A DNA stretch of 64,000 nucleotides from Escherichia coli (GCF_003334765.1 NZ_QOWT01000005.1); one strand, 5' to 3'; shown: positions 7,385 to 20,357, counted from the stretch's first letter. The notes: generated from the sequence alone by a model not told the origin. A program made the numbers and translations.

Positions 7385-8077
7385 CTAGTGATAACCACGC
7401 GCGGTCATAAAATCCGTAATCGCTTTTTCTGCATCAATCAGCACCTTTTCCAGTGGCTGATTAGCATCGATATCAACCAGTTGTGCACCACCAAAGGTTA
7501 ACTGTGGCGTTATGGCTATCTTTCTTGCCAGCGATTCCCTTTTGTGGTCAGGCTTACGCGCGCAGGCCACGTCTAGATCGACATTGAGTTTGATGACCAG
7601 ATCAGGTTTATGGCTCGCCATCCAGTGAAACGCTTTACGTTCCTGGCTTGCCAGCCATGAGACAAAACGACCACCTTCAATGTTAGGTGGGAACACTGTA
7701 CCATCGTAAGCGCCAGGAATTTGGTCCTGAGGATAACGGTCGGTTAGAACAATTAACCCGCGACGACGACAGGCAAGCATATGACGAAAGCGCAGTAAGC
7801 GACGGGCGACAAACGCTGTAATTACCAGCGCCGGAACAGGGCCAGGCAATTTTTTTGCTGTTTTCACCTGATTTCGTTCAATTGTTTTATGTAAGGATTT
7901 TCCCATGAACGGTAATTTTGTCACTGCACGACCGACATTTCCGGCCTGTTTTCCTAAATGAACTCTTTCGGCAGCACCATATTTTTCGACAACGGTAATG
8001 AGATGTTCACACACCGTTGACTTGCCTGAACCATCGCTACCAATAACGGCAATTAATGGAGGTGTTATTGACTGCAT
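7385..8077 (-). CDS. yghT: P-loop NTPase/kinase-like protein (230 aa), paralogue 1
   Basis: Walker [10 protein letters not shown], plus DRYPQ and ARKPDH motifs shared with the next two genes. Position matches yghT. Confidence 0.85.
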
Positions 8078-8250
8078 GAATATATCCTTTAATTTAAATA
8101 TCCATTAAAAATATTTATTTGGTTAATATGTTTTTATGAAAGCGTAATTCAGGTCAATGTCACAATTAACCATTGTCACAATAAGGTTGAACGGATATTC
8201 TGAGCACGGACCACGTAATATTCAATACATTATTTGCTGCCGGGTTTTTC
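8078..8250. promoter_or_regulatory. AT-rich divergent promoter region yghT / yghS
   Basis: 173-bp AT-rich spacer between divergent start codons. No sites were mapped. Confidence 0.35.
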
Positions 8251-8964
8251 GTGAATCAACGTAATATGTCAATAATTAATTCCACGCCAGTGCGTGTTAT
8301 TGCCATTGTAGGATGTGATGGTTCAGGTAAATCGACCCTCACGGCAAGCCTGGTAAATGAACTGGCAGCAACAATGCCAACAGAACACATTTATCTCGGG
8401 CAATCGTCCGGGCGAATTGGCGAATGGATTTCACAGCTCCCTGTTATTGGCGCACCTTTTGGGCGTTATCTGCGAAGTAAAGCGGCACATGTGCACGAAA
8501 AGCCCTCCACACCGCCTGGCAATATGACTGCGCTGGTTATCTATCTGCTTTCCTGCTGGCGGGCGTACAAGTTTCACAAAATGTTGTGTAAAAACCAGCA
8601 AGGCTATCTGCTCATCACCGACCGCTACCCGCAGGTTGAAGTGCCGGGTTTCCGCTTTGATGGCCCGCAATTGGCAAAAACCACGGGCGGTAACGGTTGG
8701 ATAAAAATGTTAAGGCAGCGCGAGCTGAAGCTGTACCAATGGATGGCGTCTTATTTGCCCGTATTGTTGATTCGTCTTGGCATTGATGAACAAACCGCGT
8801 TTGCGCGTAAACCTGACCACCAACTGGCAGCGTTACAGGAAAAAATCGCCGTTACGCCGCAACTGACATTCAATGGCGCAAAGATCCTTGAACTGGATGG
8901 TCGGCAACCAGCCGATGAAATTCTGCAAGCGTCACTACGCGCAATTCACGCTGCGCTTTCCTGA
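8251..8964 (+). CDS. yghS: P-loop NTPase/kinase-like protein (237 aa), paralogue 2
   Basis: GTG start. Contains GCDGSGKST, DRYPQ and ARKPDH motifs. Confidence 0.85.
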   Translation: MNQRNMSIINSTPVRVIAIVGCDGSGKSTLTASLVNELAATMPTEHIYLGQSSGRIGEWISQLPVIGAPFGRYLRSKAAHVHEKPSTPPGNMTALVIYLLSCWRAYKFHKMLCKNQQGYLLITDRYPQVEVPGFRFDGPQLAKTTGGNGWIKMLRQRELKLYQWMASYLPVLLIRLGIDEQTAFARKPDHQLAALQEKIAVTPQLTFNGAKILELDGRQPADEILQASLRAIHAALS

Positions 8965-18844: not shown

Positions 18845-19214
18845 ATACACCACGAAAAAATTGGATATCAAAAATAAAATGACAATAATGCGGTGGATTA
18901 TATAGGCATAAAAGATAAATGAGATAGTATTTTCATCAGTGTGAAAATGAACATTGATTTAAATAATGAATTTGAGTTTTTTGTTTTTATTGTGAATGAT
19001 ATTTAATTTATGAATATATTAAGAAGGAGCCTTGTCCGGTCGCCTTAAATCGACAAAAGGCATTGTGGCGCTTCTGTGTAGTCTCTGACCTTATCGTAAT
19101 CATTAATAAATACTATTTATTCGTCGTTTGTATTCATTGGGTTGATTATTAAGGTGCCGTTCGTTGCTGTTGCAACCTGTTTGTCACCGTTAATTATTTG
19201 TTACCCACAGAACT
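18845..19214. promoter_or_regulatory. AT-rich divergent promoter region (lipid operon / yghO)
   Basis: 370-bp strongly AT-rich spacer between divergent starts. No sites were mapped. Confidence 0.4.
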
Positions 19215-20357
19215 ATGGAATGCGATCTGCTGATGATTAAAATTGAAAAAGTAATTAATAAAAATGACCTTAAGGCATTTATCGCTTTTCCGTCATCACT
19301 TTATCCCGACGATCCAAACTGGATACCCCCTTTATTCATTGAACGCAACGAGCATTTGTCTGCGAAAAATCCGGGGACGGACCATATCATCTGGCAGGCG
19401 TGGGTGGCAAAAAAAGCGGGGCAGATAGTTGGGCGTATTACCGCGCAAATAGATACCTTGCACCGCGAGCGTTACGGCAAAGATACCGGTCATTTCGGCA
19501 TGATTGACGCCATTGATGATCCGCAGGTTTTTGCCGCGTTGTTTGGCGCAGCGGAAGCGTGGTTGAAGTCACAAGGTGCAAGTAAGATCAGCGGGCCTTT
19601 CAGCCTGAATATCAATCAGGAAAGCGGATTACTGATTGAAGGTTTTGACACTCCGCCCTGTGCGATGATGCCACACGGCAAACCGTGGTATGCCGCGCAT
19701 ATTGAACAACTGGGTTATCACAAAGGCATTGATTTACTGGCGTGGTGGATGCAGCGAACCGATCTCACTTTCTCTCCGGCGCTAAAAAAACTGATGGATC
19801 AGGTGCGCAAAAAAGTGACCATTCGCTGCATCAATCGCCAGCGGTTTGCCGAAGAGATGCAGATCCTGCGTGAGATTTTCAATTCTGGCTGGCAGCACAA
19901 CTGGGGATTTGTGCCGTTTACCGAACATGAATTCGCGACCATGGGCGATCAACTTAAATATCTGGTGCCGGACGATATGATCTACATCGCTGAGATTGAT
20001 TCTGCACCCTGCGCGTTTATTGTCGGCTTGCCAAACATCAACGAGGCGATTGCCGATCTGAACGGATCGCTCTTTCCCTTCGGCTGGGCAAAATTGCTGT
20101 GGCGTTTAAAAGTCAGCGGTGTGCGAACTGCGCGAGTACCGCTGATGGGCGTGCGGGACGAGTATCAGTTCAGCCGCATCGGCCCGGTGATTGCGTTGTT
20201 ATTGATTGAAGCCTTACGCGATCCGTTTGCCCGCCGGAAGATCGATGCGCTGGAGATGTCATGGATCCTCGAAACCAATACAGGCATGAATAACATGCTG
20301 GAACGCATTGGGGCAGAGCCGTACAAGCGTTACCGATTGTATGAAAAGCAGATTTAA
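19215..20357 (+). CDS. yghO: GNAT-family N-acyltransferase, apparently intact (380 aa; start may be the downstream MIKIEK)
   Basis: Position next to glcC matches yghO. The GNAT fold assignment is from recall of the yghO annotation, not from a motif I can point to. Confidence 0.7.
   Translation: MECDLLMIKIEKVINKNDLKAFIAFPSSLYPDDPNWIPPLFIERNEHLSAKNPGTDHIIWQAWVAKKAGQIVGRITAQIDTLHRERYGKDTGHFGMIDAIDDPQVFAALFGAAEAWLKSQGASKISGPFSLNINQESGLLIEGFDTPPCAMMPHGKPWYAAHIEQLGYHKGIDLLAWWMQRTDLTFSPALKKLMDQVRKKVTIRCINRQRFAEEMQILREIFNSGWQHNWGFVPFTEHEFATMGDQLKYLVPDDMIYIAEIDSAPCAFIVGLPNINEAIADLNGSLFPFGWAKLLWRLKVSGVRTARVPLMGVRDEYQFSRIGPVIALLLIEALRDPFARRKIDALEMSWILETNTGMNNMLERIGAEPYKRYRLYEKQI

What the first reader, a model, noticed from the sequence alone, without database searches (positions are those of the whole stretch)
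7385..20357. A 13-gene locus organised as one unit, whose core appears to be missing from K-12
The architecture is symmetric:
- yghT (-) is divergent from a tightly packed + strand run: yghS, yghR, yghQ, orf274, ytfJ-like, lptF-like, lptG-like. Gaps are 45 nt or less, or the genes overlap, and I see no internal terminator.
- That run converges at one perfect hairpin (14724-14750) with the four-gene lipid operon.
- The lipid operon is in turn divergent from yghO.

From memory, K-12 MG1655 has an IS5 copy (insH9, b2982) between a shortened yghQ (355 aa against 449 here) and a yghO annotated as a pseudogene. That pattern is what an IS5-associated deletion of about 11.1-19.2 kb of this window would leave.

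If so, the laboratory workhorse has lost exactly the genes that would reveal the function. That would explain why yghQ, R, S, T and O remain y-genes.
Basis: partly seen in the sequence, partly recalled or inferred. Interest (0 to 1): 0.6.

Follow-up and report, generated by a model that had tools for sequence, protein, structure and literature searches.

The report
E. coli sphingolipid synthesis-and-export locus
This 13-gene block is the ceramide (sphingolipid) synthesis and export locus that most E. coli carry and K-12 lost to an IS5-linked deletion; its core is already published, but five to six of its genes form an unstudied conserved module.

Summary
All 13 genes, their spacing and the perfect hairpin at 14724-14750 are as described. 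K-12 MG1655 carries one IS5 in place of window 10868-19254 (8,387 bp). This truncates yghQ to 355 aa and removes the promoter and first 13 codons of yghO.

The locus is not unknown:
- spt, acpR and aasR of E. coli BL21 have been tested biochemically. epi and yghO were assigned by homology; yghO is the ceramide synthase orthologue (PMC9386255).
- A 2026 preprint draws the "sphingolipid operons" of E. coli UTI89 with LptF2/LptG2.

What I add:
- The same 13 families stay clustered across Enterobacterales in at least four block orders.
- All 13 genes are under purifying selection (dN/dS 0.02-0.15).
- The deleted segment is present in 4064 of 5426 complete E. coli genomes.
- The uncharacterised part is a conserved module: three thymidylate-kinase-fold paralogues (YghT/S/R), the MOP flippase YghQ and a 274-aa protein with a CHAD-like fold. 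This module recurs in Xanthomonadales, Sphingomonadaceae and Zymomonas; Acetobacter has the kinases and flippase. Enterobacterales add a YtfJ-like protein.
- It stands where Caulobacter has its CpgABC head-group genes.

The native lipid remains unobserved.

The parts
7385..8077 (-). yghT: P-loop kinase paralogue 1 (230 aa, soluble, pI 9.9), divergent from yghS
   Evidence: ORF. 34-36% identical to YghS/YghR, with invariant Walker A, DR[YF]PQ and RKPDH motifs. The dTMP-kinase equivalog scores 24 bits against a cutoff of 83.
8078..8250 (.). Divergent yghT/yghS control region, with a promoter-like site (TTGTCA-17-TATTCT, 8173-8201) and a direct repeat CA[AT]TGTCACAAT at 8155-8166 and 8171-8182
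   Evidence: The TTGTCAC...ATATTCT block and a downstream TACAAT block are conserved in several Enterobacterales genera.
8251..8964 (+). yghS: P-loop kinase paralogue 2 (237 aa)
8996..9754 (+). yghR: P-loop kinase paralogue 3 (252 aa) with a thymidylate-kinase fold
9800..11149 (+). yghQ: MOP-superfamily flippase (449 aa); truncated to 355 aa in K-12
   Evidence: Pfam Polysacc_synt 41.6 bits against a cutoff of 28.2. 45% identical to the Zymomonas gene in the same module.
11149..11973 (+). orf274: soluble basic all-helical protein with a CHAD-like fold and no sequence family
11982..12545 (+). ytfJ-like periplasmic protein (187 aa, N-terminal signal-like segment)
   Evidence: Pfam YtfJ_HI0045 E 1.6e-59 and NCBIfam 216 bits. 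One N-terminal hydrophobic segment. RefSeq starts it at 11985.
12576..13646 (+). lptF2: second LptF-family permease
   Evidence: Pfam LptF_LptG E 2.3e-54 and NCBIfam LptF 320 bits. Only 94 bits to solved E. coli LptF.
13643..14722 (+). lptG2: second LptG-family permease; 4-nt overlap with lptF2
14724..14750 (.). Perfect 10-bp/7-nt-loop hairpin between the convergent lptG2 and spt genes (probable bidirectional terminator)
   Evidence: A structure is found at this position in most arrangement-A genera checked, with compensatory changes within Escherichia.
14757..15929 (-). spt: serine palmitoyltransferase
   Evidence: NCBIfam SerpalmtaseBetaP 599 bits against a cutoff of 500. The BL21 enzyme makes 3-oxo-sphinganine (PMC9386255).
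15929..16177 (-). acpR: dedicated acyl carrier protein
   Evidence: Pfam PP-binding. The BL21 protein carries 4'-phosphopantetheine (PMC9386255).
16209..17123 (-). epi/cerR: NAD-dependent epimerase-family ketoreductase
   Evidence: Pfam Epimerase. 34% identical to Caulobacter CC_1164 (PMC9386255 supplement).
17120..18844 (-). aasR: acyl-AcpR synthetase (fatty acyl-AMP ligase)
   Evidence: Pfam AMP-binding. The start follows RefSeq. The BL21 enzyme acylates its own AcpR (PMC9386255).
18845..19214 (.). 370-nt AT-rich divergent control region between aasR and yghO; deleted in K-12
   Evidence: Sequence. GC drops to 0.42 here. No Rfam match.
19215..20357 (+). yghO: bacterial ceramide synthase (bCerS/Aca) orthologue
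   Evidence: No Pfam or NCBIfam family. BL21 YghO against Caulobacter CC_1154: E 1e-107, 44% identity, 98% coverage (PMC9386255 supplement).
10868..19254 (.). Segment replaced by one IS5 copy in K-12 MG1655 (8,387 bp)
   Evidence: Present at 80% coverage or more in 4064 of 5426 complete E. coli genomes.

Best explanation
The block is one functional unit for making a ceramide-based lipid and moving it to the outer membrane.

Steps resting on published work with the BL21 copies of these genes:
- AasR loads a fatty acid onto the dedicated carrier AcpR.
- Spt condenses acyl-AcpR with serine to give 3-oxo-sphinganine.

Steps inferred by orthology to Caulobacter:
- YghO, the bCerS orthologue, N-acylates the long-chain base.
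- The epimerase-family reductase reduces the 3-keto group to give dihydroceramide.

Steps inferred from fold, gene fusions and conserved linkage:
- The three soluble, basic, thymidylate-kinase-fold paralogues YghT/S/R phosphorylate ceramide or its head group at the cytoplasmic face.
- The CHAD-like protein orf274 binds the resulting phospho-anionic group, or polyphosphate.
- The MOP flippase YghQ flips the lipid to the periplasmic leaflet.

Step inferred by analogy with Caulobacter LptF2/G2:
- LptF2/LptG2 pair with the housekeeping ATPase LptB, extract the lipid from the inner membrane and pass it to the Lpt bridge.

The periplasmic YtfJ-like protein is an accessory of unknown role.

In K-12, an IS5-linked deletion removed everything from yghQ codon 356 to yghO codon 13. 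It left three orphan kinases, a truncated flippase and a promoterless ceramide synthase.
For: Family assignments:
- Spt passes the NCBIfam equivalog cutoff (599 bits against 500).
- PP-binding, Epimerase, AMP-binding, LptF_LptG (two genes), Polysacc_synt and YtfJ all pass Pfam cutoffs.

Published work:
- Biochemistry of E. coli BL21 Spt, AcpR and AasR, and assignment of yghO as the N-acyltransferase orthologue (PMC9386255).
- Caulobacter LptF2/G2 form a complex, bind LptB and are essential when sphingolipid is made; E. coli UTI89 is drawn with the same genes (bioRxiv 10.64898/2026.04.12.717747).

Linkage, from a tblastn matrix over 79 loci anchored on orf274:
- 43 loci hold all 13 families within +/-10 kb.
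- There are at least four block orders in Enterobacterales.
- Xanthomonadales have K-K-K, then aasR-epi-acpR-spt-yghQ-orf274 as one same-strand run.
- The K-K-Q-C module recurs in Sphingomonas, Novosphingobium and Zymomonas, and K-K-K-Q in Acetobacter.

Other support:
- Some distant kinase homologues are fused to MOP flippases.
- dN/dS is 0.02-0.15 for all 13 genes.
- Kinase fold and CHAD-like fold.
- K-12 junctions.
Against: - I found no report of a sphingolipid from any E. coli in the searched library.
- BL21, which carries the native locus, gave no detectable 3-oxo-sphinganine unless the genes were overexpressed (PMC9386255). The locus therefore appears silent in rich medium.
- About a quarter of complete genomes lack the core.
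- The kinase substrate is unknown.
- MOP flippases normally act on undecaprenyl-diphosphate-linked substrates, not ceramides (established knowledge).
- In sphingomonads the K-K-Q-C module lies apart from spt.
Confidence: 0.8

Rival explanations
1. The kinase/flippase/CHAD-like module (yghT/S/R, yghQ, orf274) works on a different substrate, such as a polyprenyl-phosphate-linked glycan or a polyphosphate-related polymer. On this reading it lies next to the ceramide genes only because both remodel the envelope.
For: - Distant homologues of the kinase are fused to GT4 glycosyltransferases, NTP_transf_5 domains and MOP flippases typical of polysaccharide loci.
- In Sphingomonadaceae, Zymomonas and Acetobacter the module lies away from spt.
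- The known substrates of MOP flippases are undecaprenyl-diphosphate-linked.
Against: - Every non-enterobacterial taxon in which I found the module belongs to a group that has spt or is known for sphingolipids: Sphingomonas, Novosphingobium, Zymomonas, Acetobacter, and Luteibacter/Rhodanobacter/Dyella (which carry spt next to it).
- In Xanthomonadales yghQ-orf274 directly follows spt on the same strand.
- The E. coli locus has no glycosyltransferase or sugar-nucleotide gene.
- The Caulobacter sphingolipid locus also holds a MOP flippase, CC_1166.
Confidence: 0.12
2. The locus is a silent relic in E. coli. It is inherited and intact in many strains but no longer used, and it is on its way to being lost.
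For: - It is absent or partial in about 25% of complete genomes through several independent events:
  - the K-12 IS5 junction, in about 350 genomes;
  - a pitB'-to-yghD deletion;
  - an orf274'-to-gspC deletion;
  - IS1 and IS3 cases.
- No product is detected in BL21 without overexpression.
- The aasR/yghO control region is AT-rich.
Against: - dN/dS is 0.02-0.15 for all 13 genes against E. whittamii, E. ruysiae and a divergent E. coli lineage.
- The ORFs are intact, with 58-84% amino-acid identity to Hafnia, Serratia, Sodalis and Rahnella.
- Promoter-like and terminator elements are conserved.
Confidence: 0.05
3. The region holds three unrelated neighbours: an LPS-transport back-up (lptF2/G2), a polysaccharide exporter (yghTSRQ), and an aminoketone or signal-molecule operon built around a BioF/CqsA-like enzyme.
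For: - RefSeq names the genes 'LPS export permease LptF/LptG', 'lipopolysaccharide biosynthesis protein' and 'dTMP kinase'.
- Spt also scores against BioF, Kbl and CqsA-type models.
Against: - The best NCBIfam model by far is serine palmitoyltransferase, and the score is above its cutoff.
- The BL21 enzyme makes 3-oxo-sphinganine.
- The 13 families travel together through at least four rearrangements.
- LptF2/G2 are old paralogues, with only 94 and 145 bits to solved E. coli LptF/G.
Confidence: 0.03

Closest known systems
E. coli BL21(DE3) ECD_02850-ECD_02854 (yghO, aasR, epi, acpR, spt) as described by Padilla-Gomez et al. 2022 (PMC9386255)
   Same: This is the same five genes in another strain. 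They show that AcpR carries phosphopantetheine, that AasR acylates its own AcpR, and that Spt prefers acyl-AcpR and makes 3-oxo-sphinganine. yghO is assigned as the N-acyltransferase.
   Different: That work covers only the five ceramide genes, all overexpressed. It says nothing about yghT/S/R, yghQ, orf274, the ytfJ-like gene or lptF2/G2, and it reports no native lipid.
Caulobacter crescentus sphingolipid locus CC_1152-CC_1168 (ceramide genes, CpgABC head-group genes, LptC2/F2/G2, flippase CC_1166)
   Same: The logic is the same: five ceramide genes, a MOP-family flippase and a second LptF/LptG pair without its own LptB.
   Different: - The E. coli locus has none of the Caulobacter head-group families. 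Those are the DAG-kinase-type ceramide kinase CpgB, a CDS-like protein, a CDP-alcohol phosphatidyltransferase, a calcineurin-like esterase and two nucleotidyltransferases.
- It also has no LptC2.
- In their place it has three thymidylate-kinase-fold paralogues, a CHAD-like protein and a YtfJ-like protein.
LptB2FGC lipopolysaccharide extractor
   Same: LptF2 and LptG2 pass the Pfam and NCBIfam LptF/LptG models over their full length.
   Different: - They are distant from E. coli's own LptF/G (94 and 145 bits).
- They have no adjacent lptB or lptC.
- They sit in a ceramide locus.
- The cargo is presumed to be a sphingolipid rather than LPS. That is shown only genetically, and only in Caulobacter.
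Thymidylate kinase / deoxynucleoside kinase P-loop kinases
   Different: - Scores are far below the dTMP-kinase equivalog cutoff (24-33 bits against 83).
- There is a family-specific insert of about 40 residues that is modelled with low confidence.
- There are three paralogues, linked to a flippase.
- The RefSeq name 'dTMP kinase' is probably an over-annotation.
CHAD domains (polyphosphate-binding helical domains, e.g. Ricinus CHAD 6qv5, PptA 6rn5, YgiF 5a61)
   Different: - There is no sequence-level match: Pfam CHAD is hit by 1 of 29 members, below threshold.
- Foldseek TM is only 0.49.
- No link between CHAD domains and sphingolipids turned up in the literature search.

Membership tests
Proteobacterial ('Rhodobacteria'-type) ceramide synthesis cluster | Serine palmitoyltransferase of the alpha-oxoamine synthase family | tested here: met
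   NCBIfam SerpalmtaseBetaP equivalog, 599.4 bits against a cutoff of 500, full length.
Proteobacterial ('Rhodobacteria'-type) ceramide synthesis cluster | Dedicated ACP gene immediately upstream of spt, plus an acyl-ACP synthetase nearby | tested here: met
   The PP-binding ORF overlaps the spt start by 1 nt. The AMP-binding ORF is in the same operon.
Proteobacterial ('Rhodobacteria'-type) ceramide synthesis cluster | bCerS/Aca N-acyltransferase orthologue | not tested
   No Caulobacter sequence was available here. Published comparison of BL21 YghO with CC_1154: E 1e-107, 44% identity, 98% coverage (PMC9386255 supplement). YghO has no Pfam or NCBIfam model.
Proteobacterial ('Rhodobacteria'-type) ceramide synthesis cluster | The organism makes a ceramide or sphingolipid | not testable with these tools
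   Only heterologous overexpression data exist, giving 3-oxo-sphinganine. I found no report of a native E. coli sphingolipid.
Caulobacter-type ceramide phosphoglycerate (CpgABC) head-group pathway | DAG-kinase/LCB5-type ceramide kinase (CpgB) and a CDP-alcohol phosphatidyltransferase (CpgA) | tested here: not met
   None of the 13 proteins hits these Pfam families. CpgB is an LCB5/DAGK enzyme with a GGDG motif. For CC_1159.
LptF/LptG permeases | Full-length match to the LptF_LptG family models | tested here: met
   Pfam E 2.3e-54 and 1.1e-68. NCBIfam LptF 319.8 bits (cutoff 230) and LptG 305.1 bits (cutoff 240).
LptF/LptG permeases | Being the cell's LPS exporter (the meaning of the equivalog name) | tested here: inconclusive
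   This pair lies in the segment K-12 lacks, and K-12 is viable. The pair scores only 94 and 145 bits against solved E. coli LptF/G, so it is a paralogous second pair. Its cargo is untested.
dTMP kinase (Tmk) | Score above the NCBIfam TIGR00041 equivalog cutoff | tested here: not met
   24.2, 25.2 and 33.0 bits against a cutoff of 83.25. Only the fold is shared.
CHAD domain | Match to Pfam PF05235 | tested here: not met
   No hit for the E. coli protein. One of 29 and one of 25 family members hit, at E 0.003-0.03 and below threshold. PDB profile searches found nothing.
CHAD domain | Two-four-helix-bundle CHAD fold | tested here: inconclusive
MOP (Wzx/MurJ-type) flippase | Match to the Polysacc_synt family models | tested here: met
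   PF01943 41.6 bits (cutoff 28.2) and PF13440 31.9 bits (cutoff 23).
IS-mediated adjacent deletion | A complete IS with both terminal repeats, different flanking 4-mers, and loss of the intervening DNA relative to other strains | tested here: met
   A 1195-bp IS5 with GGAAGGTGCGAATAAG and CTTGTTCGCACCTTCC ends. Flanking 4-mers are TTAG and TTAA. 8,387 bp are missing.

The most novel reading that the evidence does not exclude
YghT/S/R would be a new class of sphingolipid head-group kinases, with a thymidylate-kinase fold and no relation to CpgB or to eukaryotic ceramide kinases. They would build a phosphorylated, possibly oligo-phosphorylated, ceramide. The CHAD-like orf274 would hold this lipid and the MOP flippase YghQ would flip it, which would make YghQ the first identified sphingolipid flippase of a Gram-negative inner membrane. 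Most E. coli, and many other Enterobacterales, would then be able to place an anionic sphingolipid in their outer membrane. K-12 work could never have shown this.
Probability: 0.25. Interest if true: 0.75.

Novelty: new variant of a known kind. Interest (0 to 1): 0.5.

Why it matters
E. coli is usually described as making no sphingolipids, a view built largely on K-12.

- Three quarters of complete E. coli genomes, and many other Enterobacterales, keep a full ceramide pathway under purifying selection. It includes its own Lpt-like exporter.
- If the pathway is expressed in the host or the environment, it would change the composition of the outer membrane. In Caulobacter, sphingolipid loss alters sensitivity to polymyxin, detergent and phage. 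The product could also be a lipid that host immunity recognises.
- The kinase/flippase/CHAD-like module is the uncharacterised part. It also occurs in sphingomonads, and it is a concrete candidate for the missing inner-membrane flipping step.
- K-12 is a natural clean null background for reconstituting the locus.

Tried and rejected
- YghT/S/R as homologues of the Caulobacter ceramide kinase CpgB: rejected. CpgB is an LCB5/DAG-kinase enzyme, whereas these proteins are P-loop kinases.
- A Pho box in the control regions: none found in the whole window at up to 3 mismatches.
- Rfam families in 7000-21500: none at E <= 0.1.
- Foreign base composition: rejected. GC is 0.45-0.54, like the flanking genes.
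- Sequence-level evidence for CHAD: PDB profile searches with two alignments and Pfam scans of all members found nothing above threshold.
- YghO and the YtfJ-like protein against solved structures by sequence: nothing.
- The afdb50 fold library was unavailable.
- K-12 literature on yghQ/R/S/T (a chlorhexidine adaptation study and a silkworm virulence screen): no functional lead.
- The origin of the T at the left IS5 junction could not be settled. The intact strains listed in the search read C there.
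Full report
**1. The observation**

The window matches the chromosome of E. coli B771 at 100% identity over the 14-kb query 7000-21000. The ORFs found mechanically match the RefSeq genes of that strain:
- yghT on the minus strand;
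- yghS, yghR, yghQ, a 274-aa hypothetical gene, a YtfJ-family gene, lptF and lptG on the plus strand;
- spt, an ACP gene, an epimerase-family gene and a fatty acyl-AMP ligase gene on the minus strand;
- yghO on the plus strand.

The block lies between pitB and glcC.

- Spacing: gaps in the plus-strand run are 31, 45, -1, 8, 30 and -4 nt. Gaps in the minus-strand operon are -1, 31 and -4 nt.
- Hairpin: the 34-nt gap between the stops of lptG and spt holds a perfect 10-bp stem with a 7-nt loop at 14724-14750. Its dG is -21.9 kcal/mol and z is -4.4. It is the top terminator-like site in the region.
- Internal terminators: the remaining terminator-like matches are weak and no more frequent than in shuffled sequence.

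**2. The K-12 deletion**

MG1655 covers only 40% of the 14-kb query, with an IS5 transposase gene between a yghQ pseudogene and yghO.

- Reading the K-12 sequence and locating its flanks in the window shows a complete 1195-bp IS5 in place of window 10868-19254 (8,387 bp).
- The left junction reads ...CTGATTTAG|IS5, where the window has ATTCAG. K-12 YghQ therefore ends at a TAG after 355 residues.
- The right junction is IS5|TTAATAAAAATG. This removes the yghO promoter region and its first 13 codons.
- RefSeq calls a fusion ORF that starts inside IS5.
- The flanking 4-mers differ (TTAG and TTAA). This was therefore not a simple insertion. It was either an adjacent deletion or recombination between two IS5 copies.

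**3. Distribution within E. coli**

| Measure | Genomes (of 5426 complete) |
|---|---|
| Deleted segment present at 80% coverage or more | 4064 |
| K-12 left junction | 347 |
| K-12 right junction | 353 |

- Other strains lost the locus by different events:
  - a pitB'-to-yghD deletion;
  - an orf274'-to-gspC deletion;
  - IS1 and IS3 cases.
- The intact locus is therefore the majority state, and loss has happened several times.
- The set of complete genomes is biased towards laboratory and clinical lineages. These fractions are descriptive only.

**4. What the genes are**

| Gene(s) | Result |
|---|---|
| spt | Passes the NCBIfam serine palmitoyltransferase equivalog (599 bits, cutoff 500) |
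| acpR, epi, aasR | PP-binding, Epimerase and AMP-binding families |
| lptF2, lptG2 | Pass the LptF and LptG models, but score only 94 and 145 bits against solved E. coli LptF/G; they are old paralogues |
| yghQ | MOP flippase |
| ytfJ-like | YtfJ family, with an N-terminal signal-like segment |
| yghT, yghS, yghR | 34-36% identical paralogues with invariant Walker A, DR[YF]PQ and RKPDH motifs |
| yghT/S/R vs Tmk | 24-33 bits against the dTMP-kinase cutoff of 83 |
| orf274, yghO | No Pfam or NCBIfam family |
| orf274 (other tests) | Foldseek TM 0.49, E 0.25; sequence profiles find nothing |

I therefore call orf274 CHAD-like, not a CHAD family member. The kinases and orf274 are soluble and basic, with pI 9.2-9.9.

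**5. What is already published**

*Padilla-Gomez et al. 2022 (PMC9386255) studied these genes from BL21(DE3).*
- AcpR carries phosphopantetheine.
- AasR, AcpR and Spt together make 3-oxo-sphinganine.
- yghO is listed as the N-acyltransferase orthologue: 44% identical to Caulobacter CC_1154, E 1e-107.

*Caulobacter locus.*
- It holds the five ceramide genes, a MOP flippase, LptC2/F2/G2 and six head-group genes.
- One head-group gene is the DAG-kinase-type ceramide kinase CpgB.

*An April 2026 preprint.*
- Caulobacter LptF2/G2 form a complex with each other and with LptB.
- It draws the "sphingolipid operons" of E. coli UTI89.

*Gaps in the literature.*
- I found no paper on yghT/S/R, yghQ, orf274 or the ytfJ-like gene in this context.
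- I found no report of a native E. coli sphingolipid.
- The BL21 host, which has the native locus, gave no product without overexpression.

**6. Is it one unit?**

Homologues of orf274 occur across Enterobacterales. Serratia and Sodalis carry the same 13 families in other orders, with other flanking genes.

A scan of one genome per species, anchored on orf274, returned 79 loci. I scored each locus for all 13 E. coli proteins by tblastn. Forty-three loci hold all 13 families within +/-10 kb. Many of the others are cut by contig ends or by the fetch range.

In the orders below, K = yghT/S/R, Q = yghQ, C = orf274, J = ytfJ-like, F and G = lptF2 and lptG2, S = spt, a = acpR, E = epi, L = aasR, O = yghO.

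| Taxa | Order and strand |
|---|---|
| Escherichia, Shigella, Pseudocitrobacter, Hafnia, Citrobacter, Shimwellia, Pluralibacter, some Erwinia | K- K+ K+ Q C J F G S- a- E- L- O+ |
| Serratia, Pantoea brenneri, Klebsiella indica, Tatumella, Mangrovibacter | O- L E a S K- K+ K+ Q C J F G |
| Sodalis, Acerihabitans, Rosenbergiella | G- F- Q C J S- a- E- L- O+ K- K- K+ |
| Rahnella, Pantoea coffeiphila, an Erwinia | Q C J S- a- E- L- O+ K- K- K+ G- |
| Luteibacter, Rhodanobacter, Dyella | K- K+ K+ L E a S Q C, with O about 9 kb further on |
| Carnimonas | G- F- L E a S C O- K- K+ K+ |
| Sphingomonas, Novosphingobium, Zymomonas | K K Q C only |
| Acetobacter | K K K Q |

For the last two rows as well. 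The Zymomonas flippase is 45% identical to YghQ. Its neighbouring gene matches the orf274 profile at 100% probability.

The unit is thus built from blocks that are shuffled but stay together: [K K K], [Q C (J)], [F G], [L E a S] and [O].

Further support:
- Some distant kinase homologues are fused to MOP flippases, NTP_transf_5 domains or GT4 glycosyltransferases. This independently ties the kinase to a flippase.
- All 13 genes show dN/dS of 0.02-0.15 against E. whittamii, E. ruysiae and a divergent E. coli.
- The convergent junction keeps a hairpin in most arrangement-A genera checked, with compensatory changes within Escherichia.
- A promoter-like block upstream of yghS is conserved.

**7. 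Mechanism**

The proposed mechanism and the status of each step are set out under the best explanation. In brief:
- The 3-oxo-sphinganine steps are published for the BL21 proteins.
- N-acylation by YghO and reduction are inferred by orthology.
- Export by LptF2/G2 with LptB is inferred from Caulobacter.
- Phosphorylation by YghT/S/R, binding by orf274 and flipping by YghQ are my inferences. They rest on fold, fusions and linkage.

The E. coli locus has none of the Caulobacter head-group families. The kinase/CHAD-like module is the only candidate head-group machinery in the block. The role of the YtfJ-like protein is open.

**8. Verdict**

- The identity of the core is already in the literature, so the headline is not new.
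- The new part is the demonstration that all 13 genes form a conserved set, and the definition of the kinase/flippase/CHAD-like module. That module makes this locus a distinct variant of known bacterial sphingolipid loci.
- The main weakness is that no one has seen the lipid.

Noticed in passing
window 7385-8964 and 12576-14722 (RefSeq names in L001): RefSeq calls yghT and yghS 'dTMP kinase', although they score 24-25 bits against a cutoff of 83. It calls the second permease pair 'LPS export ABC transporter permease LptF/LptG', because both pass the equivalog cutoffs although they are paralogues in a ceramide locus. Both names are likely to mislead.
   Followed up: partly
L064 10997-20814 (Luteibacter); same layout inferred for L060, L066, L067, L069-L071, L079: In Xanthomonadales the yghO orthologue heads a tightly packed same-strand run with a membrane-fusion protein, two AcrB-family RND pumps and an outer-membrane factor. 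No lptF2/G2 lies within 20 kb. This may be an alternative exporter for the same lipid.
   Followed up: partly
L059 and L064 (about 9152-10816); L031 and L045 (Pluralibacter): orf274 is tandemly duplicated in two Luteibacter species (L059, L064). Pluralibacter genomes carry a second, isolated copy away from the locus.
   Followed up: no
proteins P0325, P0336, P0367, P0300: Distant homologues of YghR (30-35% identity) form the C-terminal domain of proteins of about 480-1040 aa. Their N-terminal parts are NTP_transf_5 nucleotidyltransferase-like domains, MOP flippases or GT4 glycosyltransferases. These come from unnamed metagenomic contigs.
   Followed up: partly
L005 17823-18182 (Sodalis): The Sodalis version of the locus has an extra prokaryotic diacylglycerol-kinase (DAGK_prokar) gene between yghO and the three kinases.
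   Followed up: no
L030, between lptG2 and spt (Pluralibacter gergoviae): About 1 kb of extra DNA, apparently one gene, is inserted at the convergent junction where other genera have only the hairpin.
   Followed up: no
window 8155-8182: A direct repeat CAATGTCACAAT / CATTGTCACAAT, 16 bp apart, overlaps the -35 of the promoter-like site upstream of yghS. The second copy (TTGTCAC) is conserved in Hafnia, Citrobacter, Pseudocitrobacter, Shimwellia and Sodalis. It could be a regulator binding site.
   Followed up: partly
E. coli genomes H25, H28-H30, H68, H69: The locus lies in a deletion-prone stretch. Independent events join pitB to yghD, join orf274 to gspC, or insert IS1 or IS3. One copy of the region is reported on a plasmid.
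   Followed up: partly
window about 21450-64000 (L089): The rest of the window holds the glc operon, sslE with the T2SS-beta genes (gspC-M, pppA, gspS2), and a capsule-type region. The capsule region has ABC transporter genes, galE, several GT2 genes and an IS3 insertion.
   Followed up: no
K-12 yghQ (literature, PMC8170033): A chlorhexidine-adaptation study reports many clustered variants in K-12 yghQ (10 nonsynonymous and 2 frameshift changes in one isolate). It treats yghQ as a resistance marker. In K-12 the gene is a truncated remnant next to IS5, so read-mapping artefacts are a possible explanation.
   Followed up: no
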